Origin: a bacterium
GTDB taxonomy: Bacteria > UBP13 > UBA5359
DNA length: 64,000 nucleotides
NCBI GenBank assembly: GCA_028685295.1
Contig: JAQUEL010000004.1
Coordinates: 24-64,023 of the forward strand
Direction of reading: 5' to 3'
Positions within the stretch are counted from its first letter, which is position 1, and every line of letters begins with the position of its first letter. The translations under genes were made by a program, and so were the position numbers. Under the pieces are notes generated by a model. That model was not told where the DNA came from. It saw only the letters and a list, made by a program, of their open reading frames with translations, and searched no databases. Positions 1-64,000 of the stretch are shown in pieces.

Positions 1-103
1 CGAGTCAATGTAATTCTTCCTTCTTTCATGCTTTGCATTTTATTTCAAAAAGGGACATTATCTCAAGTGAATTACATAGTGACATTATCACAAGTTAACC
101 ACA
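1..103. repeat. Left arm of a perfect inverted repeat of at least 103 bp (partner at 63878..63980). It may extend beyond the window start.
   Basis: The reverse complement of 1..103 is identical base-for-base to 63878..63980. It lies just upstream of the tRNA-Tyr/tRNA-Thr promoter. Confidence 0.9.
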
Positions 104-120
104 AGGCCGGTTACAGCTGC

Positions 121-149
121 TTGACAAAAGAATACGGATTATGTAAAAT
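121..149 (+). promoter_or_regulatory. Sigma-70-like promoter for the tRNA-Tyr/tRNA-Thr/tuf transcription unit (TTGACA-17-TAAAAT)
   Basis: TTGACA at 121-126, a 17-nt spacer, and TAAAAT at 144-149. The first tRNA begins about 50 nt downstream. Confidence 0.5.
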
Positions 150-410: not shown

Positions 411-1613
411 ATGGCAAAGTCAAAGTATGAGAGGACAAAACCGCACGTCAACGTAGGAACGATTGGTCACGTAGACCATGGTAAGACGACATTGACGGCA
501 GCGATCACCAGGGCGCTAAGTAATACGGGGCAGGCTTCTTTCAGAAGCTACGATGAGATTGACAATGCGCCGGAAGAGAAGGCTAGAGGAATAACTATTG
601 CCACGACACACGTGGAATATGAGACAGAGACGAAGCACTATGCACACGTAGACTGTCCGGGGCACGCCGACTATATCAAGAACATGATCACTGGAGCGGC
701 GCAAATGGATGGAGCCATTCTGGTGGTATCTGCAGCAGACGGGCCTATGCCGCAGACCAGGGAGCACATATTGTTGGCACGTCAGGTAGGGGTGCCGTAT
801 ATTGTAGTTTTCATGAATAAGGCGGATATGGTAGATGATCCGGAGCTGTTGGAGCTGGTAGAGATAGAGATAAGGGATCTGCTGAACAGCTATGAGTTTC
901 CCGGAGATGATACGCCGATAATAGCGGGTTCTGCGTTAAAGGCTCTGGAGTGCGGATGTGGTAAGAATGAGTGCGAGTGGTGTGGACCTATATGGAAGTT
1001 ATTGTCAGCACTGGACAGCTATATACCTGCTCCTGAGAGAGATGTAGACAAGCCGTTTTTGATGCCTATAGAGGATGTTTTCAGCATCACAGGGCGAGGG
1101 ACGGTAGTAACGGGAAGAGTAGAGCGCGGCAAGGTAAGAGTAGGAGAAGAGGTAGAGATAGTAGGTTTGGCCCCGCAGAGCCGCAAGACGGTAGCAACGG
1201 GAGTGGAGATGTTCCGTAAGTTACTGGATGAAGGCATAGCAGGAGACAACATAGGAGTATTGCTGCGTGGAGTGGATAAGAATGATGTAGAGCGTGGTCA
1301 GGTATTGGCCAAGCCCGGCTCGATCAAGCCGTATACAAAGTTCAAAGCCAACGTATATATTCTATCCAAGGAGGAAGGCGGCAGGCATACTCCGTTCTTT
1401 AACGGTTATCGTCCGCAGTTCTATTTCAGGACAACGGACGTAACGGGAGTGGCGACACTGCCGGAGGGCGTAGAGATGGTAATGCCTGGCGACAACGTGG
1501 CGTTGTCGGCAGAGCTGATAACGCCGATAGCGATGGAAGAGGGGCTGAGGTTCGCTATACGAGAGGGCGGACATACGGTCGGTGCCGGAGTTATCAGCGC
1601 TATTGACGGGTAA
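411..1613 (+). CDS. tuf: Elongation factor Tu, copy 1
   Basis: 400 aa with the P-loop [14 protein letters not shown] and NKAD motifs. A Shine-Dalgarno (GAGAGGAGA) lies upstream. It is near-identical to the copy at 16973..18175. Confidence 0.97.
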
Positions 1614-4292: not shown

Positions 4293-4484
4293 TGATATAA
4301 AGAAGTTGGAATTCAGAACAGCCGGAGAACGTTTTGAGCAAGTATTAGCTCTCTTTCGGCTGCTGAGCTCTAATGTGCTTGAATACTTGAATATTGTGGG
4401 CCTGAGACAGTGGGTGGAAACTTAAATGACCGGTTACGGTCAACCCGCCGAGGCTGGAGTGAGACGATTAGGATTGTTCTCTAA

Positions 4485-4509
4485 GACCTCCGGCCGGAGG
4501 TCTTTTTTT
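4485..4509 (+). promoter_or_regulatory. rplJ leader hairpin with U-tract (GACCTCCGG/CCGGAGGTC + TTTTTTT). Likely the L10(L12)4 autoregulatory leader attenuator.
   Basis: An 18-nt perfect palindrome followed by T7 lies inside the roughly 300-nt untranslated leader upstream of rplJ. Confidence 0.45.
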
Positions 4510-4611
4510 GCCCATGTATTGATTAAGAAGGCGAAACATGAAAAAGGCATTATATGCAGGACACGCGATGTAGAAATCCCGGGCCCGGCATTTGAAATGG
4601 AGGTGAGATTA

Positions 4612-14821: not shown

Positions 14822-16900
14822 ATGGCGAGAGTTTTTGATCTGAATAAAATACGGAATATTGGAATCGCTGCGCATATAGATGCCGGAAAGACTACGACTA
14901 CCGAGCGTATACTCTTCTATACCGGAAAGGTACATCGTATCGGCGAAGTTCATGAGGGCGCAGCCACTATGGACTGGATGGTTCAGGAGCAAGAGCGTGG
15001 TATTACCATTACCTCTGCAGCTACGTCATGCCTTTGGCAAGGGCATAATATAAATATTATCGATACTCCCGGACACGTTGATTTTACCGTTGAAGTTGAG
15101 CGCTCTCTCAGGGTTCTGGATGGCGTTGTAGCTGTGTTCTGCGCTGTTGGCGGTGTTCAGCCACAATCAGAAACGGTATGGCGCCAGGCTAACCGTTACG
15201 CTGTGCCTCGGGTAGCATTCGTAAATAAGATGGATAGAACGGGTGCGGATTTCGCTAAAGTAGTCGATAGCATACGTAACAGACTGGGAAGCAATGCTTT
15301 GGCAATGCAATTACCTATAGGTGCAGAAGAGTCCTTTAAAGGCATGATAGATCTTGTAACGATGAAGGCGTATATCTACGCTGAAGCGTTGGGAACAGAA
15401 TTCAAGGTTCGGGATGTGCCGGAAGAGATGAGGGCTGATGCTCTGGCAGCCAGGGAGCGTATACTCGAAGTTGCTGCTGAGGCTGATGATCTTCTAATGG
15501 TCAAGTATCTTGAAGGTGAAGAGCTGACCGATGATGAGATCAGGCATGGTGTAAGGCTGGCCACGCTGAGCGCCCAGGTGGTGCCTGTGTTTTGCGGCTC
15601 TTCCTTTAAGAATAAAGGCATTCAGCCGTTGCTGAACGCAGTAATAGATTATCTCCCATCTCCGCTGGATATAGCCGATGTTGAGGGAATGGATCCTCAC
15701 TCCAATGAGGTTATTGTGCGCAAGTCTTCTGATGATGAGCCTTTCAGCGCATTGGCCTTTAAGATTGCTACCGATCCTTATGTGGGTAAATTGACGTTTT
15801 TCAGAATTTATTCCGGTACGCTGGCAAGCGGATCATACGTATATAATTCCGTCAAGGGCAAACGCGAACGTATTGGACGTATTCTCAGAATGCATGCCAA
15901 TAAGCGCGAAGAGATCGATGTTGCTTATGCCGGGGATATATTGGGAGCGGTCGGACTTAAAATTACCTCCACCGGAGATACGCTTTGTGCAGAAAATGCG
16001 CCTGTTATTCTAGAAGCTATCGAGTTTCCCGAGCCGGTTATTTCTGTAGCCATCGAGCCTAAAACGAAGGCTGATCAGGATAAGATGGGCATGGCTCTGG
16101 TAAAGCTGTCAGAGGAAGATCCTACTTTTAGAACCTTTGTGGATGAGGAGACCGGTCAGACTATCATAAGGGGCATGGGTGAATTGCACCTGGAGGTAAT
16201 CATTGACAGGTTGATGCGTGAATTTAATGTGGATGCCAACGTCGGTACTCCGCAGGTCAACTATAAAGAGACCATCACCACTGCAGCTAAGGCAGAGGGA
16301 CGTTTTATTCGTCAGACCGGTGGCCGCGGCCAGTTTGGTCATGTCTGGCTGGAAGTGGAACCCCTTGAGCCCGGTAAAGGCTTTGAATTTGTCAGCGCTA
16401 TCGTTGGCGGCGTTGTTCCAAGGGAATATATACCTGCGGTTGAGGCTGGTGTCAGGGAAGCCTTGGAAAGAGGCGTTCTGGCAGGTTATAATCTGATAGA
16501 TATTAAGGTTACCTTATATGATGGGTCCTTCCATCCGGTGGATTCATCCGAGATGGCCTTTAAAATTGCCGGTTCTATGGCTTTACAGGCGGCTGTTAAG
16601 AAAGCAGGCCCAATTATCAAGGAACCTGTTATGAGAGTTGAGGTTACTACTCCGGAGGATTACCTGGGAGATGTTATGGGTGACCTTAACTCCAGAAGAG
16701 GCCATGTGGAGCAGATGCGGCAGCCGATGAGCGGTGTGCACGAGGTTGTTGCAGTTGTCCCGTTGGCTAAAATGTTTGGCTATGCTACGGATCTGCGTTC
16801 CAGAACGCAGGGCAGAGCTACATATAGCATGGAATTTGCGCACTTTGCGGAGGTTCCGGCAGGCATAGCGCAAGAAATTATTGGCGATATAAAGAGATAA
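14822..16900 (+). CDS. fusA: Elongation factor G (canonical)
   Basis: 692 aa with [17 protein letters not shown] and NKMD motifs, a G' insertion, and the domain IV tip SFHPVDSS. Confidence 0.97.
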
Positions 16901-16972: not shown

Positions 16973-18175
16973 ATGGCAAAGTCAAAGTATGAGAGGACAA
17001 AACCGCACGTCAACGTAGGAACGATTGGTCATGTAGACCATGGTAAGACGACATTGACGGCAGCGATCACCAGGGCGCTAAGTAATACGGGGCAGGCTTC
17101 TTTCAGAAGCTACGATGAGATTGACAATGCGCCGGAAGAGAAGGCTAGAGGAATAACTATTGCCACGACACACGTGGAATATGAGACAGAGACGAAGCAC
17201 TATGCACACGTAGACTGTCCGGGGCACGCCGACTATATCAAGAACATGATCACTGGAGCGGCGCAAATGGATGGAGCCATTCTGGTGGTATCTGCAGCAG
17301 ACGGGCCTATGCCGCAGACCAGGGAGCACATATTGTTGGCACGTCAGGTAGGGGTGCCGTATATTGTAGTTTTCATGAATAAGGCGGATATGGTAGATGA
17401 TCCGGAGCTGTTGGAGCTGGTAGAGATAGAGATAAGGGATCTGCTGAACAGCTATGAGTTTCCCGGAGATGATACGCCGATAATAGCGGGTTCTGCGTTA
17501 AAGGCTCTGGAGTGCGGATGTGGTAAGAATGAGTGCGAGTGGTGTGGACCTATATGGAAGTTATTGTCAGCACTGGACAGCTATATACCTGCTCCTGAGA
17601 GAGATGTAGACAAGCCGTTTTTGATGCCTATAGAGGATGTTTTCAGCATCACAGGGCGAGGGACGGTAGTAACGGGAAGAGTAGAGCGCGGCAAGGTAAG
17701 AGTAGGAGAAGAGGTAGAGATAGTAGGTTTGGCCCCGCAGAGCCGCAAGACGGTAGCAACGGGAGTGGAGATGTTCCGTAAGTTACTGGATGAAGGCATA
17801 GCAGGAGACAACATAGGAGTATTGCTGCGTGGAGTGGATAAGAATGATGTAGAGCGTGGTCAGGTATTGGCCAAGCCCGGCTCGATCAAGCCGTATACAA
17901 AGTTCAAAGCCAACGTATATATTCTATCCAAGGAGGAAGGCGGCAGGCATACTCCGTTCTTTAACGGTTATCGTCCGCAGTTCTATTTCAGGACAACGGA
18001 CGTAACGGGAGTGGCGACACTGCCGGAGGGCGTAGAGATGGTAATGCCTGGCGACAACGTGGCGTTGTCGGCAGAGCTGATAACGCCGATAGCGATGGAA
18101 GAGGGGCTGAGGTTCGCTATACGAGAGGGCGGACATACGGTCGGTGCCGGAGTTATCAGCGCTATTGATGAGTAA
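16973..18175 (+). CDS. tuf: Elongation factor Tu, copy 2 (str operon copy)
   Basis: 400 aa, identical to copy 1 except the last residue (E in place of G). The DNA has only a few substitutions. Confidence 0.97.
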
Positions 18176-24523: not shown

Positions 24524-25066
24524 ATGTCTAGATTAAAAGATAAGCATTTAAAGGAAGTCGTACCTGCCATGATGGAGCAATTCGGGTTTAAGAATATCAT
24601 GCAGGTTCCGAAGGTAACAAAGATAGTTGTCAATATGGGTGTTGGGGATGCCATTTTGGATCCCAAGCTCCTCGATGCGGCTGTGAATGATCTGGCGCTT
24701 ATAACCGGGCAGCGGCCGTTGGTTACCAAAGCCAAGAAATCCATTGCCAGCTTTAAAATCCGTGAGGGTATGTCTATTGGCTGTAAGGTGACGCTGCGCG
24801 GCGAAACTATGTATAACTTTCTTGATAAATTAATAAATGCAGTTTTACCACGTGTACGTGATTTTAGCGGGGTTTCTCCTAAATCATTTGACGGCAGAGG
24901 AAATTATGCTCTCGGCTTGAAGGAGCAATTGATATTCCCTGAGATAGATTATGACAAAGTAGTCAAAACAAGGGGAATGGATATAATTATTGTTACCAGC
25001 AGTGATAATGACGATCAGGCCCGAGCATTGCTTGCAAAGATGGGTATGCCTTTCAGGGAAAGCTGA
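24524..25066 (+). CDS. rplE: 50S ribosomal protein L5
   Basis: 180 aa L5 family. Confidence 0.96.
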
Positions 25067-27149
25067 GGAGGGGATTACGACGGAACGCTTTGATATCGAT
25101 CATCTGAGGAATATTGCTGTTGTCGGTCATAGTGGGTGTGGTAAAACAACTTTAGTGGAGTCGTTGTTATACAACTCCGGAATGGTCGACAGATTAGGTA
25201 AAGTGGATGAGGGCAATACAGTTTCCGATTATGATCCGGAAGAGGTAAAGCGCCGCATCTCGATTAACACCACGGTAGAGCCAGTTATCTGGAAGGGATG
25301 GAAAGCCAATATCCTGGACACTCCGGGGTATGCGGATTTCATTGGTGAAGTAAAGAGTGCTCTTCGTGTGGTGGAAGGCACGCTGATTACGGTTTGTGCT
25401 GTTTCAGGCGTTGAGGTAGGCACTGAAAATGTCTGGTCACTGTCGGCTGATAGGAACATGTCCAGAGTGTTCTTTATTAATAAGATGGATCGTGAAAATG
25501 CGAATTTTGTCGGAACTCTTTCTCAACTCAGGGATGGATTTGGCAATAATGTTGTGCCGTTACAGTTGCCGATTGGATCGGAGCAAGATTTCAAGGGTGT
25601 TGTAGATCTGTTACAGATGAAAGCAATTCTGTACACAGATGGAAAGGATTACACCATTACGGATATTCCTTCTGAGCTGATGGACGAGGCGACCGCCAAT
25701 AGGGAGAAAGTAATAGAACTGGCTGCGGAAGGTGACGATGATCTTCTGATGAAGTATCTGGAGGGTGAGGATCTGACCGCTGATGAAGTTATTTATGGAA
25801 TGAAGCGTGCTATTAGTGCTGGAAACGTATTTCCGGTTTTTTGTGGGTCAGCTGCGACAGGTATAGGCGTTCAGTCGCTGATGGAGGCATTGATCGAGTG
25901 GATACCTGCACCGGTAGCCACGGTTACAGGTACTGATCCCAAAACCGATGATGCAATTGAAATTGATACGGATAAGCTGGCGGCGTTGGTATATAAAACT
26001 ATGGCTGATCCTTATGTTGGTAAGCTCACATATTTTAGAGTCTTTACCGGTACATTGAAATCTGATTCCCACGTTTACAATCCTCTGCATGAACATGCCG
26101 ATGAGCGTGTAGGCCAGGTGTTTTATACCACCGGTAAGAAGCAAGAGGCTACAGATGGTGTGGGTGCCGGTGATTTTGGTGCGGTAGCAAAGCTGCAGGT
26201 AACGGTAACCGGTGATACATTGTGTGATAAGGATAAGCAGATCGTAATTCCCGGCATAAGCTTTCCGCACCCAATAATGTCGGCTGCTGTTTATCCTAAG
26301 ACAAAAGGCGATGAAGACAAGCTTGGGGCGGCACTGCAGCGCATGGTGGATGAAGACCCTACATTACATGTTCGACGAGATACGGAGACCGGGGAAACGC
26401 TGCTTTCCGGTATGGGTGAAACGCATATTGATATAGCTGTTGATCGTTTGAAACGTAAGTTCGGTGTTGATGTGGCAGTAGCCGTACCGAAGATACCGTA
26501 TCGTGAAACGGTAACTGCTCAGGCCAAATCGGAATATAAACATAAGAAGCAATCCGGTGGTCGCGGTCAATACGGACATTGTGTTATAGAGATCGAACCT
26601 ATGCCGCGAGGTGAAGGGTTTGAGTTTGTTGATAAGATATTTGGCGGTGCTGTACCCAGGCAGTATATTCCTGCAGTGGAGAAGGGTGTGCGTGAAGCTA
26701 TGCAGGAAGGCATTCTGGCTGGATACAATGTTGTGGATGTCAAGGTGACGCTGGTCGACGGATCCTTCCATCCGGTTGATTCATCGGAGATGGCTTTTAA
26801 GATTGCCGGCTCTATGGCCTTCAAAAAAGGGTTTGCCGATGCCGCGCCTGTTCTACTGGAGCCGGTCATGAACGTTGAAGTGAATGTGCCGGATGCCAAT
26901 ACCGGTGATATAATCAGCGATCTGAACACCAAGCGAGGCCGTATACTTGGTATGGAACCGCAAGGTAGCGGCCGTACGGTGGTAAAGGCCATAGTGCCTC
27001 TGGCTGAAATGCAGAGATATAGCATTGACCTGACCTCGATAACGCAGGGACGCGGTAGCTTTATCATGGAAGAGTCGCATTTTGAAGAGGTGCCGGCACA
27101 TACGGCTGAGCGAATCATTGCTGAAGCCGCAAAAGCGAAGAAGGAATAG
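25008..27149 (+). CDS. Divergent EF-G paralog (EF-G2-like translational GTPase) embedded in the spc operon. The start codon is uncertain: ATG 25008 inside rplE or a non-canonical start near 25074.
   Basis: All five EF-G domains are present. The G1 motif is [10 protein letters not shown]3 is DTPGYADF (Tyr replaces the catalytic His), G4 is NKMD, a G' insertion is present, and the domain IV tip SFHPVDSS is identical to fusA. An AGGAGG Shine-Dalgarno at 25066-25071 is followed in frame only by ATT/ACG codons, and the first in-frame ATG is 56 nt inside rplE. Confidence 0.8.
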
Positions 27150-58901: not shown

Positions 58902-58977
<76 letters not shown>

Positions 58978-58996
58978 TTTTTTTCATAGTGGTATT

Positions 58997-59036
58997 GCGG
59001 GTTTCGAGGTTTTCCTGAAACCCGCTTATTTTTTAT
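58997..59036 (+). terminator. Intrinsic terminator after tRNA-Phe (GCGGGTTTC-loop-GAAACCCGC + TTATTTTTTAT)
   Basis: A 9-bp perfect stem followed by a T-run. Confidence 0.6.
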
Positions 59037-59388
59037 CTTTTCCATTTACAACAGAACTTACAACAAAATGGGGCAGTAATTTATCGGAAAGACTGGCTAC
59101 AGCACGGGCTTTCATATCGGGGAAGATATGCGTGTAGATGTTGGCGGTAGTGCCTATATCGGCATGGCCTAGATAATCGCTGACCTGCTTTATGTCCTGC
59201 ACGTCCTCATATAAGAGTGTGGCGCAGGTGTGGCAAAAAGCATGCAGACGGGGCTTTTCCGGCAGCCGTATATCATCCTCTGTCCAGCTTTTTTGTTGTA
59301 AGCGGCAACGATTGCCTTGAAGCGCCGGCGGATATTTTTTGTCTGGAGGATTTACTATATGGATAGGGGTATTATCAGGGTTAAATTT
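59029..59388 (-). pseudogene. Tyrosine recombinase (phage-type integrase) 3' remnant: catalytic C-terminal region only, no start codon
   Basis: The minus-strand frame encodes ...RLHAFCHTCATLLYEDVQDIKQVSDYLGHADIGTTANIYTHI... (box II with the catalytic Tyr). The HxxR Arg is replaced by Cys. There is no in-frame Met upstream and the frame runs into the tRNA terminator. Confidence 0.7.
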
Positions 59389-59450
59389 TTACCCCTTAAG
59401 GGATTGACAAAAGAACAAGTGTTTGCTATCCTGCCATGGGAGGTATCGAT

Positions 59451-59675
59451 ATGGCAAAAATAAACGTTTCTTTACCTAATGAAGTTATCGTTTGTCTTGA
59501 TGAAGATGCTCGCCGGCATGGTCTGACCAGGTCAGAGTATATTCGCCGGTCTGTAGAGCTGTATGCGCGTTACCTGCATTTAGAGGAGAAGGTGGAAAAG
59601 AGAATACAGACTTTGAAAAATGCTGTCACAAAGCAGGACACTTTGGCCGAGCGTCTGGCAGAATATGTTGCCTGA
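59451..59675 (+). CDS. Ribbon-helix-helix (CopG/VapB-like) antitoxin
   Basis: MAKINVSLPNEVIVCLDEDARRHGLTRSEYIRRSVELY. TTGACA-17-TATCCT and a GGGAGG Shine-Dalgarno lie upstream. The 3' end overlaps the downstream gene. Confidence 0.7.
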   Translation: MAKINVSLPNEVIVCLDEDARRHGLTRSEYIRRSVELYARYLHLEEKVEKRIQTLKNAVTKQDTLAERLAEYVA

Positions 59676-59691
59676 AGGTGATGAGGAGGTA

Positions 59692-60195
59692 ATGCACGTG
59701 AGCAAAGACGGGTTGTTGCGCTATATTCTGTATGAGAATGCCGCGAAGGCGGATGGGGAATATTCTTCAGGCTATATTTATCTCATTAAGCCGGTATATA
59801 TACTGGATCCCAGCGTAGTTTCCCGCTGGTTTATCCGTGACGAGGTCTCCGGAGCTGCTCTCAAGGTAAGAGAGGATTATGTCAGAGGCCATATCTCTTT
59901 GATTGTGCCGGATTGCATTCTTTTTCATCTGGCTGATCTTCTGCAAAAGCACGGCGGACTTACCGGAATGGATATAGCCGCTGCTTTGAAGACTATGTAT
60001 GATATGCATATAATTATGCCTCTACGTGCCCAGAGTGCTTGCCGGGCAGTGGAGATGGCTGTAGCAGATGGTCTGGAGATGAGTAAGGCCGTTTATCTGG
60101 CCGAAGCAGAATTGAGCGGAGCCAGGCTCCTGACCAATGATAAAGAGATAGCCTCCAAATATTATGCTGCCATACATATTAGCAATTATCAGTGA
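59692..60195 (+). CDS. Putative PIN-domain (VapC-like) toxin with an N-terminal extension
   Basis: YILDPSVV...(acidic residues)...LLTNDKEI pattern. It overlaps the RHH gene in another frame. The start is ATG 59692 or GTG 59698. Confidence 0.45.
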   Translation: MHVSKDGLLRYILYENAAKADGEYSSGYIYLIKPVYILDPSVVSRWFIRDEVSGAALKVREDYVRGHISLIVPDCILFHLADLLQKHGGLTGMDIAAALKTMYDMHIIMPLRAQSACRAVEMAVADGLEMSKAVYLAEAELSGARLLTNDKEIASKYYAAIHISNYQ

Positions 60196-60611
60196 AGTGA
60201 ATAGCTTATATATGCACCTCTCATAAATCAAGAATGCAGATGCAGAAGTTCAGAAACATATTGGACTCTGAACTGCTTTTTTCACCTTGGGCCGGACGAT
60301 TAAGTTCGCGTCTTTGCGCTCTGGCTTCAAATATTGGACAGCTTCATATACCTGGTCTTTGTAACATACCTTCATTCCAACTCTTGGCCCAAGCAAGACT
60401 TCAATTTCTTTTCTGGCGGGGACAAGTGGATAGCCTTGCGTATCTATCTTGAACAACCTGCCTTTGAAGGAGAAGCAGCTTGAAGCATCTGTTTTTCGTT
60501 TCTTTTTAATACAGAGAATGGTGTCTATATCAATGTTTGACCTGAGAGGGACGAAGATGGATTCTCCTTTGGCGGGCAGAGCCGCAGGGCGGCAGGTATG
60601 GCCGAAGAAAT

Positions 60612-60723
60612 AAAAAAGCCCACAAAAGTGAGCTGTCCGGCCGGTCCACCACGCCCGGCGTCTTCCTGGACTGGCCCGCGTTAGCGGGACTCAGTGTGTG
60701 AGAAGGTGTTCCTCACCTCGGAC
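60612..60723 (-). ncRNA. Candidate small structured RNA of about 112 nt with its own promoter and intrinsic terminator. Family unknown.
   Basis: On the minus strand, TTTACT (60758-60753), a 17-nt spacer and TATAAT (60735-60730) place the +1 near 60723. The terminator is GCUCAC-UUUU-GUGGGC plus U6 (60633-60612). The transcript is GC-rich with a 5'/3' closing helix (UGUCCG/CGGACA) and internal hairpins (CCCGC-UAAC-GCGGG). No coding potential. Confidence 0.4.
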
Positions 60724-60916
60724 ACTTTAATTATATACTCGTTTCGGGGCAAAGTAAATATTCGAGGAGTGAGCATTAGGGGATGTCCCTTCGTCCCCCG
60801 CTGGACCTCTACAATTCATTGACAGGCTATATGGCCGATGCTAGAATACGCCTGTGTATTACCTTACATAATCGATGCGTAGATTGCCGCTGTCGATATA
60901 TGAGAGAGGAAATGAT

Positions 60917-61732
60917 ATGCGCTTACAAATTCTTGGAACTGCCGCCGGGGAGGCATGGCCGGCGATATTTTGCGGATGCGATACTTGCAAGCGTGCGCAA
61001 GCTGCAGGCGGCAAGGATCTGCGGAGCCGGTCATCTCTGCAAATAAACGATAAATATAAGATAGACCTTCCGCCGGATACATACCACCACATAGTTACTC
61101 AAGGTTTGAACCTCTCCAGACTCTCTCACCTTTTTATCACTCATTCTCATTCAGACCATTTTGACCTTGCTTTAATAAATATGATGAACCCGCCATTTGC
61201 ACATAATCTTGAGCATGCCCCCGTCAAAATTCTAGGAAATAATACGGTGATAGAAAAGATAAACGCCGCGTTTAATGAAAGTGATCTTTCCTTTAATGCG
61301 ACGGCTATAGAACCGTTTGTACCTGTTGCAGCCGGGGAGCTTGCTTTCACGCCCATACTTGCCGCTCATATGACGCATGAGGATTGCTTAAACTACGTGA
61401 TAAGCTCCGAGGAAGCTACCGTCCTTTATGCATCCGATACGGGTGCCTACCCGGAGAGAACGATAAATTATCTTTGTAAATTGAAGTTCGATCTGCTTGT
61501 TATTGAGTGTACCTCCGGCACGCTGAATATTCCACCCACGGTACATATGAATTTTGAAACTGTGCTTGATCTTGTAAACAGGCTAAAGTCCGCAGGAGCA
61601 GTCTCTTCCCGTACAAGAGTAGTAATTACACACTTTTCCCATAACATGGGATTGCTGCATAAAGAGCTGGAAGCAATTGCCAAGCCTCACAATATAGAGG
61701 TAGCCTACGATGGCATTGTTTTGGATATCTGA
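60917..61732 (+). CDS. Metallo-beta-lactamase-fold hydrolase, PhnP-like
   Basis: ILGTAAGEAWP...CGCDTC and THSHSDH motifs. ATG at 60917 after a GAGAGAGGAAATG Shine-Dalgarno. Confidence 0.75.
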   Translation: MRLQILGTAAGEAWPAIFCGCDTCKRAQAAGGKDLRSRSSLQINDKYKIDLPPDTYHHIVTQGLNLSRLSHLFITHSHSDHFDLALINMMNPPFAHNLEHAPVKILGNNTVIEKINAAFNESDLSFNATAIEPFVPVAAGELAFTPILAAHMTHEDCLNYVISSEEATVLYASDTGAYPERTINYLCKLKFDLLVIECTSGTLNIPPTVHMNFETVLDLVNRLKSAGAVSSRTRVVITHFSHNMGLLHKELEAIAKPHNIEVAYDGIVLDI

Positions 61733-61773
61733 AATTATTCACGCAAAAAACGCGCTCCGTACGGAGCAGCGCT

Positions 61774-62817
61774 CTACGATAAGACTACCGGCCTTCCCTT
61801 CTCAGCCGATTCATAAATATAGCGGCATAGCTCAATAGATTTACGGCCTTCCAAACCATTTACCAGCGGTTCGCGGTCCTGAGTTATGGCATCGCACATA
61901 TCCTGTATCTGTGCCTTATGCCAAGTTATGGGAAAGGCCATGGGATCGCTGGCACCGGTGCCGGTAACCTCTTCCACATCGCCAGGTTCATCATTCTCTG
62001 TAGCATTCATAATATTCCAAGAGGATAGGCTGCCCTGTTCCAGCGTGATAGTTCCTCTGGTACCGTGCAGTTCCAGACGCTCTGGTAAACCCGGATAAAG
62101 ACAAGTAGAAGCCTCGATAATGCCCATAGCACCATTCCTGAATTTAAGATTGATTACAGCCAGGTTCTCAATTTCAATATTTCGATGCACAGGCATTATG
62201 GCGGTACGAGCATAGACCTCGGCCACCGGGCCAAAAACCCAAAGCAACAAATCGATGGAATGCAAAGCTTGATTAATGAGAACTCCGCCGCCCTCCGTGG
62301 ATAGTTTGCCGCGCCATTCATCCTTATCAAAATATGCCTGCGGGCGATACCACTTAACATGGACCCCGCCATAAAGCAACTGCCCAAGCCCACCGGCATG
62401 GCAATATTCCCTAGCACGACGTACCGCCTTCTTGAATCTGTTTTGAAAGATCACCGCCAACTTTACTCCATTGGCCTGACAAGCCTCGATGAGCGCATCG
62501 CACTTCTCCAGCCTGATATCCATGGGCTTCTCCACTATAACATGTTTGCCCTGCCGCGCAGCCTCTATCCCCATATCGGCATGGCAAAAAGGCGCCGTAG
62601 TGATATCCACTATATCGATGTCATCCCGCCCCAACACCTCACCGTAATCGCAAGTCCAAGGAACGCCATATCTATCTGCAAATTGCCTGGCCCGTTCTTC
62701 TGTCCTCGAATAAACCAACTTCAGATCGGTCTCATCCAGTTGCACAATAGAGTCAGCATGCGCTGCAGATACCATACCGGCCCCTACCAGAGCAACGCCG
62801 TATTTTCGCTTATACAA
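61774..62817 (-). CDS. Gfo/Idh/MocA-family NAD(P)-dependent oxidoreductase
   Basis: N-terminal Rossmann GVALVGAGMVSAAHA, an EKP motif and a C-terminal alpha/beta domain. Confidence 0.8.
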   Translation of the reverse strand: MYKRKYGVALVGAGMVSAAHADSIVQLDETDLKLVYSRTEERARQFADRYGVPWTCDYGEVLGRDDIDIVDITTAPFCHADMGIEAARQGKHVIVEKPMDIRLEKCDALIEACQANGVKLAVIFQNRFKKAVRRAREYCHAGGLGQLLYGGVHVKWYRPQAYFDKDEWRGKLSTEGGGVLINQALHSIDLLLWVFGPVAEVYARTAIMPVHRNIEIENLAVINLKFRNGAMGIIEASTCLYPGLPERLELHGTRGTITLEQGSLSSWNIMNATENDEPGDVEEVTGTGASDPMAFPITWHKAQIQDMCDAITQDREPLVNGLEGRKSIELCRYIYESAEKGRPVVLS

Positions 62818-63072
62818 TATACCTGCCTCCGTACTTTTTTATTTATCGTAGCATAGATGCAAGGCTTTTCACGCTCTCTTTTCTTCTGCTGCTAAGGGAC
62901 TGTCTTGCTTCTGCTTAAGCTTATCATATAATAAAATATCACCTTTTGGCTAGTATACGGAATATCCGGAATTGATGGCAATTCCATATACAGGCATAAA
63001 GCATGATCAAAATGTTTTATTTATCTGAAAGTATGGTAAATATTTTTAGACATATCGATCAGGAGCGATATC

Positions 63073-63756
63073 ATGCTGATAAAGGGCATTTTTCTCGTTA
63101 TATGTTTTTGTTTAATCCCACTTTCAACCGCAGCCGCAAAAGCTGAAACATATTCCATTGTCGCTGTACCTGCTATGCAAGCCAAAGCAAAGAAGGCGCC
63201 GCTTTATATAACGGATGCACATAGGTTGGGTGAACTACAATCAGATTATGATTCTATTAGTGTAGAAGCAGTCAGAATTTATCAATATGGAAAATCAAAA
63301 CCTTTTTATAAAGGCATAACGCTTATCTTTACAGATTCAATAGTAACGTTAAATATTGACGAAGCAAAAGCCTTATCCGCAACCATACCAGATCTGATAA
63401 AAATAGGTACTGAATGGGCAGAGATAGAAAAGGAATCCGCAGAGGCAGATATATTCGTGGGAGGCCCTGATTATATATTTAATGTAGGATTTTATCAGCA
63501 AGGTAATAAAAGGATTATTTATATGTCCAGCCTCGAAGCCACAGTAATGCTTAAATCGCTAGATGATGTTTTAAATTTCAAAGATTTAGTTGATCAAGGA
63601 TTAATATGGCTGTCACGCAATAAAAGTGTCAACCTATCGCAAAGCAATAAAAACGATTTGATAACATTAGTTACCAAGAAAGGCTGTCATAATAAAAACG
63701 GGTTCCGGCAAAACACCAGAACCCGCATAAATACTGGAGCCGACGAGCGGGATTGA
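63073..63756 (+). CDS. Hypothetical secreted protein in a low-GC patch. The 3' end overlaps tRNA-Thr on the opposite strand.
   Basis: Signal peptide (LVICFCLIPLSTAAAKA), no known domain, local GC about 38% against about 49% elsewhere. Confidence 0.4.
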   Translation: MLIKGIFLVICFCLIPLSTAAAKAETYSIVAVPAMQAKAKKAPLYITDAHRLGELQSDYDSISVEAVRIYQYGKSKPFYKGITLIFTDSIVTLNIDEAKALSATIPDLIKIGTEWAEIEKESAEADIFVGGPDYIFNVGFYQQGNKRIIYMSSLEATVMLKSLDDVLNFKDLVDQGLIWLSRNKSVNLSQSNKNDLITLVTKKGCHNKNGFRQNTRTRINTGADERD

Positions 63757-63810
63757 ACCGCTGGCCTACGCATTACGAGTGCGTCGCTCTACCAGCTGAG
63801 CTACGTCGGC
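63735..63810 (-). tRNA. tRNA-Thr(CGT)
   Basis: Minus-strand acceptor stem GCCGACG pairs with CGTCGGC. The anticodon loop is cuCGUaa. It has a GGTTCAATCCC T-arm and a terminal TCCA. Confidence 0.8.
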
Positions 63811-63830: not shown

Positions 63831-63860
63831 ATTTTATCATTACAGAGCCATCAGTGTCAA
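63831..63860 (-). promoter_or_regulatory. Promoter for tRNA-Thr(CGT) on the minus strand (TTGACA-18-TAAAAT with a TG extended -10)
   Basis: The reverse complement reads TTGACActgatggctctgtaatgaTAAAAT. It lies between the right arm of the inverted repeat and the tRNA. Confidence 0.45.
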
Positions 63861-63877
63861 TTCCCGGAGTCATATAG

Positions 63878-63980
63878 TGTGGTTAACTTGTGATAATGTC
63901 ACTATGTAATTCACTTGAGATAATGTCCCTTTTTGAAATAAAATGCAAAGCATGAAAGAAGGAAGAATTACATTGACTCG
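63878..63980. repeat. Right arm of the perfect inverted repeat of at least 103 bp (partner at 1..103)
   Basis: Exact reverse complement of 1..103. Confidence 0.9.
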
Positions 63981-64000
63981 AACCCAATTAAAACAACTAA

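What the first reader, a model, noticed from the sequence alone, without database searches (positions are those of the whole stretch)
1..103. Perfect inverted repeat of at least 103 bp at both window ends, bracketing the entire ribosomal-protein/RNA-polymerase supercluster
Positions 1..103 are the exact reverse complement of 63878..63980, with zero mismatches. Each copy lies immediately upstream of an inward-facing tRNA promoter: tRNA-Tyr/Thr/tuf on the left, tRNA-Thr(CGT) on the right. The match runs to the window edge, so the repeat probably extends further and may belong to larger inverted duplicated units outside the window, for example divergently oriented rRNA or tRNA operons. Perfect identity implies recent duplication or ongoing gene conversion. 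Inverted repeats of this kind are substrates for RecA-mediated inversion of the intervening roughly 64 kb, which would flip the whole translation supercluster relative to the replication origin.
Basis: seen in the sequence. Interest (0 to 1): 0.55.

Follow-up and report, generated by a model that had tools for sequence, protein, structure and literature searches.

The report
Two promoter-seeking insertion sequence copies
The perfect inverted repeat at the two window ends is the cut-off tips of two identical copies of a 1.6-kb jumping gene (an IS1202-family insertion sequence). Each copy sits exactly 17 bp upstream of a tRNA promoter because this element seeks out promoters, a habit that appears unreported for its family.

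Summary
Window 1-103 is the exact reverse complement of 63878-63980, and the repeat does run past the window edge. It is not part of an rRNA or tRNA operon.

Longer contigs of the same locus show two 100% identical copies of a 1617-bp insertion sequence (IS). It has TGT...ACA ends and one 448-aa HTH+DDE transposase (NCBIfam ISNCY_2, 389 bits against a cut-off of 250; IS1202 family, ISTde1-like).

Each copy has its own intact 17-bp target-site duplication. So these are two independent insertions, not a composite transposon and not a mis-assembly. No inversion of the 63.8-kb segment has been fixed.

The reason for the mirror arrangement:
- In 20 of 21 independent sites of this IS, in 7 of 7 sites of a 61%-identical Blautia relative, and in most sites of 36%-identical Paenibacillaceae relatives, the duplication directly abuts the -35 hexamer of a TTGACA-N17-TATAAT promoter.
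- In this IS and the Blautia relative the IRL end always faces the promoter. The two tRNA promoters here converge, so the two copies are inverted.

This geometry is known for TnGBS/ISLre2/ISKra4 (Mutator-type transposases). I found no report of it for the IS1202 family. As first described the finding is ordinary; the target specificity is moderately novel.

The parts
1..103 (-). Left IS copy: its first 103 nt (IS nt 103 to 1 when read on the + strand). Contains the IRL end TGTGGTTAAC... (tip at window 103), a transposase promoter-like site (66 to 37) and the transposase start (ATG at 38-36, or 29-27). The rest of the IS lies left of the window.
   Evidence: The full 1617-bp copy is seen in L009 and L048.
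104..120 (.). Inner copy of the 17-bp target-site duplication of the left IS (AGGCCGGTTACAGCTGC; GCAGCTGTAACCGGCCT in IS orientation).
   Evidence: The same 17-mer follows the IRR end on the outer side in L009 and L048.
121..149 (+). Sigma-70/sigmaA-type promoter TTGACA-17-TAAAAT of the tRNA-Tyr / tRNA-Thr / tuf unit. This is the target feature next to which the left IS inserted.
   Evidence: 11 of 12 matches. tRNA-Tyr 201-287 and tRNA-Thr 302-377.
63831..63860 (-). Promoter TTGACA-18-TAAAAT (TG-extended) of tRNA-Thr(CGT) (63735-63810, minus strand). This is the target feature of the right IS.
63861..63877 (.). Inner copy of the 17-bp target-site duplication of the right IS (TTCCCGGAGTCATATAG).
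   Evidence: The same 17-mer follows the IRR end in L047. Four short-read assemblies carry one extra G here, giving 18 bp.
63878..64000 (+). Right IS copy: its first 123 nt. IRL tip at 63878, transposase promoter-like site at 63915-63944, start codons at 63943 (MQSM...) and 63952 (MKEGRITLTRTQLKQL...).
   Evidence: The full copy is seen in L003 and L047.
60268..60569 (-). Internal 302-bp fragment of a third, decayed copy of the same IS (IS nt 1000-1301, 98.7% identical).
   Evidence: blastn.

Best explanation
The repeat is the IRL-proximal tip of two identical copies of a 1617-bp insertion sequence of the IS1202 family (ISNCY in NCBI naming), ISTde1-like, which generates 16-18 bp target duplications. 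The host is an uncultured bacterium whose SecY is closest, at 60-63% identity, to MAGs labelled Armatimonadota.

The two copies arrived by two separate copy-and-paste insertions. Each landed so that its 17-bp target duplication directly abuts the upstream edge of the -35 hexamer of a strong sigmaA-type promoter, with the IRL end and the divergently transcribed transposase gene facing the promoter. The tRNA-Tyr/Thr/tuf promoter and the tRNA-Thr(CGT) promoter point toward each other, so the element's fixed orientation relative to promoters puts the two copies in inverted orientation. They bracket 63.8 kb of translation and transcription genes.

Shown: the identity, extent, ends, duplications, transposase family, multicopy state and the promoter-adjacent, oriented insertion pattern.

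Inferred: the transposase (or its target-capture complex) recognises promoter DNA or RNA polymerase holoenzyme bound to it, and cuts at the -35 edge and 17 bp upstream. This leaves the core promoter intact and acts as a safe haven. The inverted pair is a possible substrate for homologous inversion, but no inversion has occurred.
For: - Repeat and extent: 103-nt perfect inverted repeat. Full 1617-bp copies are 100% identical to each other on one 248-kb contig (L047 and L048, Ga0534105_00499) and in an NCBI MAG (L003).
- Ends: three or more different flanks join at the same TGTGG tip, and IRR ends ...GTTATTGACA.
- Target duplications: left copy GCAGCTGTAACCGGCCT on both sides; right copy TTCCCGGAGTCATATAG on both sides.
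- Transposase: NCBIfam NF033594 ISNCY_2, 388.6 bits against a cut-off of 250. It has an HTH, D153..DD173/174..D213..E266 and Q at +7, and about 31% identity to ISKpn21-type elements. All of this matches the published IS1202-family signature (bioRxiv 10.1101/2022.12.17.520857).
- Multicopy: the exact protein occurs on 27 contigs, with at least 4 accessions in one MAG. Ten full copies were fetched and 13 metagenome contigs end in IRL.
- Promoter targeting: among 21 independent sites of this IS, 18 have TTG 16-18 nt from IRL. One more has TTG at 19 nt, one has TTC at 17 nt, and one has none. Across 30 junctions (29 genomic sites of this IS, the Blautia relative and one Paenibacillus site, plus one IS-IS junction), 21 pass a strict TTG-N3-N16-18-TAnnnT test, against a 0.28% background (binomial P about 3e-47).
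- The promoters look real: downstream of them lie tRNA genes (4 sites) or Shine-Dalgarno+ORF units reading away from the IS.
- Same pattern in relatives: a 61%-identical Blautia IS, 7 of 7 sites with 17-18 bp duplications; 36%-identical Paenibacillaceae ISs, 8 of 10 sites in either orientation.
- One Paenibacillus insertion lies inside an IS3-family transposase ORF, at an antisense TTGACC-17-TATAAT. This argues for recognition of the promoter rather than mere survival of intergenic insertions.
- Independent corroboration: an ISKra4-family IS (NF033572, 300 bits) sits at the same spot (16-17 bp from the -35; a long-read contig with an imperfect duplication) at the L046 promoter, and a 112-bp remnant of it follows the outer duplication of the right window copy. 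The ISKra4 group is known to insert 15-17 bp upstream of -35 (PMC3942029).
Against: - Promoters are consensus predictions. There are no transcription start data for this uncultured lineage.
- One site of this IS (L043, 3' end of bioY) and one Paenibacillaceae site (L064) have no promoter-like sequence, so the specificity is strong but not absolute.
- Two of ten full copies (L040, L041) lack a matching duplication. Either rearrangements or a mechanism detail is not understood.
- The left-copy and right-copy evidence comes from sister assemblies 99.1-99.9% identical to the window over the compared stretches, not from the window's own genome, whose outer flanks are not visible.
- A 30%-identical Vibrio member with a 16-bp duplication showed no promoter at its single site, so the trait is not family-wide.
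- Nothing here distinguishes DNA recognition from RNA-polymerase recognition.
Confidence: 0.9

Rival explanations
1. The repeat is the end of larger inverted duplicated cellular units, such as divergent rRNA or tRNA operons, kept identical by gene conversion.
For: The repeat touches the window edge and sits beside tRNA genes.
Against: The repeated unit ends after 1617 bp at a TGT...ACA boundary with 17-bp direct duplications. It encodes a transposase and holds no tRNA or Rfam RNA. The outer flanks are unrelated: MFS transporter side versus NlpC/P60 side.
Confidence: 0.01
2. It is an assembly artefact: one repeat copy wrongly placed at both ends, or a chimeric join.
For: Short-read contigs in this population do break or become chimeric at this IS (L002, L019, L011 starting at window 117).
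Against: Both copies with all four unique junctions lie on one 248-kb contig. The junctions recur in an NCBI MAG and in several independent metagenomes. Each copy has its own target duplication, which an artefact would not create.
Confidence: 0.02
3. The pair is a composite transposon, or the 63.8-kb segment has already been inverted by recombination between the copies.
For: Two inverted IS copies flanking a segment is the architecture of a composite transposon and of inversion substrates. Two other copies of this IS (L040, L041) lack target duplications, so IS-mediated rearrangements probably occur in this genome.
Against: Each copy has its own matching 17-bp duplication, and the two duplications differ from each other. 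A composite insertion would give one shared outer duplication, and an inversion would swap the partners. The segment holds essential r-protein and RNA polymerase genes with strong leading-strand GC skew.
Confidence: 0.03
4. The promoter adjacency is not active targeting. Instead it results from recognition of a short DNA word (TTGACA, which is also the IRR tip) plus purifying selection that removes intragenic insertions.
For: The IRR tip of this IS, of the Blautia relative and of the Paenibacillaceae relatives is itself TTGACA. The -35 hexamer is the most conserved target element, while the 17-bp duplication itself shows little conservation. L049 has a -35-like word with a poor -10.
Against: A correctly spaced -10 (often TG-extended) accompanies the -35 in most sites. 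It is also present at an intragenic antisense site inside an IS3 transposase gene, where selection for intergenic location cannot apply. Distance and orientation are fixed to within 1 bp, which selection alone does not produce.
Confidence: 0.25

Closest known systems
IS1202 family, ISTde1 subgroup (ISNCY in ISfinder/NCBI naming)
   Same: Single HTH+DDE (rve-type) transposase of about 450 aa with the D..DD..D..E..Q(+7) signature. TGT-initiated imperfect inverted repeats. Length about 1.4-1.7 kb. 15-17 bp target duplications. An extra 9-13 aa between the second D and E relative to a member with a 5-bp duplication. NCBIfam ISNCY_2 above cut-off.
   Different: No target specificity is described for this subgroup in the two family papers held in the library. 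Only the ISAba32 subgroup is reported to target XerC/D (dif-like) sites. Here the 16-18 bp duplication abuts promoter -35 hexamers. Not compared directly with ISTde1 itself, because no reference sequence was available.
TnGBS1/2, ISLre2 family and ISKra4-group elements (prokaryotic Mutator-like transposases)
   Same: Insertion 15-17 bp upstream of the -35 of sigmaA promoters. Fixed orientation when the two inverted repeats are dissimilar, and both orientations when they are similar (compare the Paenibacillaceae relatives). Found at the very same promoters here: an ISKra4-family copy and a remnant of one lie next to this IS.
   Different: Unrelated transposase class. The protein here matches ISNCY_2 and IS481/rve models, not the ISLre2 or ISKra4 models. 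The target duplication here fills the whole 17-bp gap up to the -35.
Ty3 and Dictyostelium TRE retroelements (my own knowledge, plus for the Ty3 analogy drawn by Guerillot et al.)
   Same: Position-specific integration just upstream of transcription units, including tRNA genes. Interpreted as a safe haven reached through the transcription machinery.
   Different: Those are eukaryotic retroelements targeting Pol III factors, with no sequence or mechanistic homology shown.

Membership tests
IS1202 family (ISNCY) | Transposase matches the curated family model | tested here: met
   NF033594 transpos_ISNCY_2: E 3e-116, 388.6 bits, cut-off 250, covering model positions 1-363 of 368.
IS1202 family (ISNCY) | [quoted passage not shown] | tested here: met
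   HTH_28 18-66 (weak). QIDAT (D153), IDDAT (D173, D174), YSDRHT (D213), GRIERLWDTLQ (E266, Q273), all invariant in alignment A1. Signature as described.
IS1202 family (ISNCY) | Imperfect terminal inverted repeats beginning 5'-TGT | tested here: met
   IRL TGTGGTTAACTTGTGATAATGTCAC; IRR (reverse complement) TGTCAATAACTTATGAAAATGTCCC; 19 of 25 identical.
ISTde1 subgroup of the IS1202 family | Target duplication of 15-17 bp | tested here: met
   Duplications of 16, 16, 17, 17, 17, 17 and 18 bp in seven of ten full copies; 17-18 bp in the Blautia relative.
ISTde1 subgroup of the IS1202 family | Subgroup-specific 5-10 aa insertion between the second D and E | tested here: inconclusive
   A 9-13 aa insertion (ADRLTVEEIIADK) is present relative to a Sphingobium member with a 5-bp duplication and a Vibrio member. 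No ISTde1 reference sequence was available for direct comparison.
TnGBS / ISLre2 / ISKra4 promoter-targeting elements | Mutator-like (p-MULT) DDE transposase | tested here: not met
   No hit to the ISLre2 or ISKra4 NCBIfam models. Hits are ISNCY_2, IS481 and IS630. The neighbouring IS in L046 does match ISKra4, which shows the models work.
TnGBS / ISLre2 / ISKra4 promoter-targeting elements | Oriented insertion 15-17 bp upstream of the -35 of sigmaA promoters | tested here: met
   The -35 hexamer starts 16-18 nt from IRL in 18 of 21 sites (plus one at 19 nt and one TTC), always on the IRL side. Definition from PMC3942029.
Composite transposon | One target duplication shared by the two outer ends, and none at the inner ends | tested here: not met
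   Each IS has its own duplication on both of its sides, and the two duplications differ.
Duplicated rRNA/tRNA operon | Repeat unit contains rRNA or tRNA genes | tested here: not met
   No tRNA (ARAGORN) and no Rfam family inside the IS or its outer flanks in L047 and L048.

The most novel reading that the evidence does not exclude
A lineage of the IS1202 family has independently evolved the same oriented, position-precise insertion as the unrelated Mutator-type TnGBS/ISLre2/ISKra4 elements: one cut at the upstream edge of the -35 hexamer of sigmaA promoters and the other 16-18 bp further upstream. This lineage has an rve/IS481-like DDE transposase and 16-18 bp duplications, and it carries a 9-13 aa insertion between the second D and E. 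On this reading, the unusual duplication length of at least this lineage of the ISTde1-like group reflects that geometry. The two transposase classes also compete for the very same promoter-upstream slots in one genome.
Probability: 0.55. Interest if true: 0.65.

Novelty: new variant of a known kind. Interest (0 to 1): 0.5.

Why it matters
- For this locus: the striking repeat is explained. It is neither a structural feature of the ribosomal supercluster nor an assembly error. It signals an active, multicopy IS that breaks short-read assemblies of this uncultured lineage.
- More generally: how TnGBS-type transposases find sigmaA promoters is still unresolved. Here an unrelated transposase class shows the same 16-18 bp geometry, and the orientation rule depends on lineage (fixed in this IS and the Blautia relative, either way in the Paenibacillaceae relatives). 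That gives a comparative handle on whether the shared determinant is promoter DNA shape or bound RNA polymerase.
- It also offers a possible explanation for the odd 15-17 bp duplications of the ISTde1-like group, at least in the lineages examined here.
- Promoter-upstream insertion leaves the core promoter intact, so it lets an IS multiply next to essential, highly expressed genes (tRNA, tuf) at apparently low cost. It also creates long inverted repeats around essential regions.
- Such elements could be useful as site-predictable insertion tools.

Tried and rejected
- The genome-contig scan with the IRL 40-mer found only two small, probably mis-binned MAG contigs (labelled Clostridiales and Acholeplasma). 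It did not find the source genome.
- The exact transposase could not be looked up directly at first. It worked after listing of cluster members gave it an id.
- A viral-contig scan for relatives gave 4 loci with no definable ends or duplications, so it was uninformative.
- The plasmid tblastn is dominated by members at about 30% identity, many of them annotated as ISKpn21-type. These served only as controls. A Sphingobium copy with a 5-bp duplication sits next to what looks by eye like a XerC/D (dif-like) site rather than a promoter (the Xer-site reading was not formally tested).
- I looked for a junction promoter (IRR TTGACA + 17 bp + IRL) in the putative circle junction. The IRL tip TGTGGT is a poor -10, so I make no claim.
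- I looked for sequence preference inside the 17-bp duplication. There is little (at most 0.65 bit per column), apart from an unexplained subset sharing GGACCTCTACAG.
- I looked for the recombination partners of the two duplication-less copies (L040, L041) among the held loci. None was found.
- No empty-site allele of either window insertion was found among the contigs fetched.

Full report
**Observation.** Positions 1-103 are the perfect reverse complement of 63878-63980 (pair I1; read directly). The match stops at a sharp boundary on the inner side (window 103/104 and 63877/63878) and runs off the window on the outer side. On the right, 20 further bases of the same element are visible up to 64000. 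Read outward, the repeat starts TGTGGTTAAC.... It contains a promoter-like TTGAGA-18-TAAAAT and then an ATG opening an ORF, MQSMKEGRITLTRTQLKQL..., that leaves the window. That looked like the 5' end of an insertion sequence.

**Extension.**
- Exact-protein look-ups with window genes near each end retrieved longer contigs of the same locus.
  - L009, L048 and L047 come from one 248-kb JGI contig (Ga0534105_00499).
  - L003 and L011 come from NCBI MAG GCA_050949125.1.
- These contigs are 99.1-99.9% identical to the window over the compared stretches, so they are sister strains rather than the same assembly.
- In them the repeat is a 1617-bp element, 100% identical between the left and right copies.
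- The ends are TGTGGTTAACTTGTGATAATGTCAC (IRL) and ...GGGACATTTTCATAAGTTATTGACA (IRR), 19 of 25 matching as inverted repeats.
- There is one 448-aa ORF. No tRNA or Rfam RNA lies inside or just outside the element.
- The MAG contig JBMNFD010000010.1 begins at window position 117, which is the usual short-read break at a repeat.

**Family.**
- The protein scores 388.6 bits on NCBIfam ISNCY_2 (cut-off 250). It scores more weakly on IS481, rve and HTH_28.
- It carries QIDAT / IDDAT / YSDRHT / GRIERLWDTLQ. That is the D..DD..D..E pattern with Q at +7 that Siguier and colleagues give as the IS1202-family signature.
- It is about 31% identical to ISKpn21-type elements.
- Seven of ten full copies have target duplications of 16-18 bp. 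This matches the ISTde1 subgroup (15-17 bp), as do the TGT termini and a 9-13 aa insertion between the second D and E relative to a member with a 5-bp duplication.

**Independent insertions, no inversion.**
- On the single JGI contig the left copy is flanked on both sides by GCAGCTGTAACCGGCCT. The right copy is flanked on both sides by TTCCCGGAGTCATATAG.
- A composite-transposon insertion would give one shared outer duplication. Recombination between the copies would swap the partners. Neither is seen.
- Four short-read assemblies carry one more G at the inner right junction (an 18-bp duplication), which is a minor polymorphism or error.
- The chimeric short contigs L002 and L019 do not have the flank combination expected from an inversion.
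- Inversion therefore remains only a theoretical possibility. The strong positive GC skew over the r-protein genes suggests it would be counter-selected. That last point is my inference.

**Why the copies sit where they sit.**
- In both window copies exactly 17 nt separate the IS tip from a TTGACA hexamer, which is followed 17-18 nt later by TAAAAT and then by tRNA genes.
- A metagenome scan with the IRL tip returned 13 contigs, ten of them from one sample and most ending about 120 nt into the IS. The exact transposase is recorded on 27 contigs, and ten full copies were fetched.
- Over 21 independent genomic sites of this IS:
  - 18 have TTG 16-18 nt from IRL.
  - One has TTG at 19 nt, one has TTC at 17 nt, and one (L043, inside the 3' end of bioY) has nothing.
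  - Nearly all have a TAnnnT-like -10 at 16-18 nt spacing, often TG-extended.
- A strict TTG/TAnnnT test passes in 21 of 30 junctions, against a 0.28% background in the window (binomial P about 3e-47). The 30 junctions are 29 genomic sites (this IS, the Blautia relative and one Paenibacillus site) plus one IS-IS junction.
- Downstream of these motifs are tRNA genes (four sites) or Shine-Dalgarno+ORF units reading away from the IS.
- IRL always faces the promoter. The two tRNA promoters in the window converge, and this rule by itself produces an inverted pair.

**Breadth.**
- A Blautia IS with a 61%-identical transposase shows the same pattern at 7 of 7 sites. Its ends are TGTTATTAAC... and ...GTTATTGACA, with 17-18 bp duplications.
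- Paenibacillaceae relatives (36% identity) show a promoter abutting the duplication at 8 of 10 sites: five on the IRL side and three on the IRR side. One insertion is intragenic with no promoter, and at one locus (L059) the IS ends could not be defined.
- One Paenibacillus insertion lies inside an IS3-family transposase ORF, at an antisense TTGACC-17-TATAAT. Removing the IS and one copy of the duplication restores a 310-aa ORF. This argues for recognition of a promoter-like site rather than mere survival of intergenic insertions.
- A Vibrio member (30% identity, 16-bp duplication, no D-E insertion) showed no promoter at its single site. A Sphingobium member with a 5-bp duplication sits next to what looks by eye like a XerC/D (dif-like) site, as published for the ISAba32 subgroup.

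**Corroboration from a known promoter-seeker.**
- Directly after the outer duplication of the right window copy lies a 112-bp remnant of the end of another IS.
- In L046 the complete version of that IS sits in the same relation to another copy of our IS. There it encodes an ISKra4-family transposase (300 bits, cut-off 205), 16-17 bp from a -35 (a long-read contig in which the duplication is imperfect).
- ISKra4-group, ISLre2 and TnGBS elements are the known elements that insert 15-17 bp upstream of sigmaA -35 boxes (PMC3942029). Two unrelated transposase classes therefore use the same slot at the same promoters.

**Mechanism.**
- Shown: cuts at the -35 edge and 16-18 bp upstream; fixed orientation in this lineage; the core promoter and 17 bp upstream of it preserved.
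- Inferred: target capture through promoter DNA or promoter-bound holoenzyme, by analogy with the proposal for TnGBS.
- A DNA-word-plus-selection model is a live rival (confidence about 0.25). It is favoured by the fact that the IRR tip is itself TTGACA. It is disfavoured by the co-occurring -10 and by the intragenic case.
- L019 contains IRR-17 bp-IRL, and the 17-mer equals the IRL-side flank of the L041 copy. This is what a copy-out circle or tandem dimer would look like, but it comes from one short-read contig only.

**Literature.** The two IS1202-family papers in the library report target specificity only for the ISAba32 subgroup (XerC/D sites). They do not mention promoters for the ISTde1 subgroup. 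Every paper mentioning ISTde1 was listed, and none of the titles or abstracts concerns target-site choice beyond those two papers. A large IS-context survey does not report it for ISNCY either. Absence from this library is not proof of novelty.

**Verdict.** The finding as written is a correctly observed but ordinary feature: two IS copies. The underlying element is a new variant of a known kind. It is an IS1202-family IS with TnGBS-like sigmaA-promoter targeting, and this targeting explains both the promoter adjacency and the inverted arrangement.

Noticed in passing
window 60268-60569 (-): A 302-bp internal fragment of the same IS (nt 1000-1301, 98.7% identical), with no ends. It is a decayed third copy inside the window, and several short-read contigs break there.
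   Followed up: partly
window 60803-60854 (+); also L017, L018, L040, L041, L019: The promoter TTGACA-17-TAGAAT of the Lactamase_B_2 gene is preceded by TGGACCTCTACAATTCA. The same GGACCTCTACAG-type 17-mer lies between IRL and the -35 at five IS sites, and weakly at the left window copy. At L040 and L041 it is not duplicated on the IRR side. It might be carried over from a donor site, or be a promoter-upstream motif of this organism. Unexplained.
   Followed up: partly
window 411-1613 and 16973-18175: Two tuf genes differ at 3 nt (1 aa), which is typical concerted evolution. Short-read contigs L010 and L013 collapse them into fusA-tuf-secE chimeras.
   Followed up: partly
window 24990-27149 (+): A full-length EF-G paralogue (all five EF-G domains) is embedded in the ribosomal-protein cluster, in addition to fusA at 14822-16900.
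   Followed up: no
window 58902-63700: tRNA-Phe is followed by a 112-aa integrase fragment (59026-59364, minus strand), an RHH protein (59451-59675) and a PIN-like protein (59692-60195). Then come the IS fragment, a Lactamase_B_2 / anti-Pycsar Apyc1-like gene and a Gfo/Idh/MocA gene. It looks like a decayed integrated island. GC content drops to 0.43 at 62-64 kb.
   Followed up: no
L047 4070-4181 and L046 4070-5500 (outside the window, beyond its right end): A 112-bp remnant of an ISKra4-family IS end lies immediately after the outer duplication of the right IS copy. A complete copy is present in L046 (transposase 445 aa, NF033572 300 bits).
   Followed up: yes
L019 1-120: IRR-CCCCTTGTAGAGGTCCA-IRL junction, where the 17-mer equals the IRL-side flank of the L041 copy. 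It may be an IS circle or a tandem dimer, but it comes from a single short-read contig.
   Followed up: partly
L004 1161-2716: In one Logan assembly, an IS1595-family transposase gene and an aminoglycoside nucleotidyltransferase-like gene are inserted between the 227-aa ORF and the Gfo/Idh/MocA gene. This is a strain-level variant of window region ~62817-63073.
   Followed up: no
L040 and L041 (contig Ga0534105_00688): Two further IS copies without matching target duplications. L041 also lacks the first 48 nt of IRL. This suggests IS-mediated rearrangement elsewhere in this genome.
   Followed up: partly
L009 19414-21203: rpoC is split into 350-aa and 859-aa ORFs in the JGI contig but is intact (1204 aa) in the window. 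This is probably a long-read frameshift error in that assembly. There is also a cluster of differences near window 5737.
   Followed up: no
window 4383-4517: Ribosomal protein L10 leader (RF00557, 46.9 bits, gathering threshold 44).
   Followed up: no
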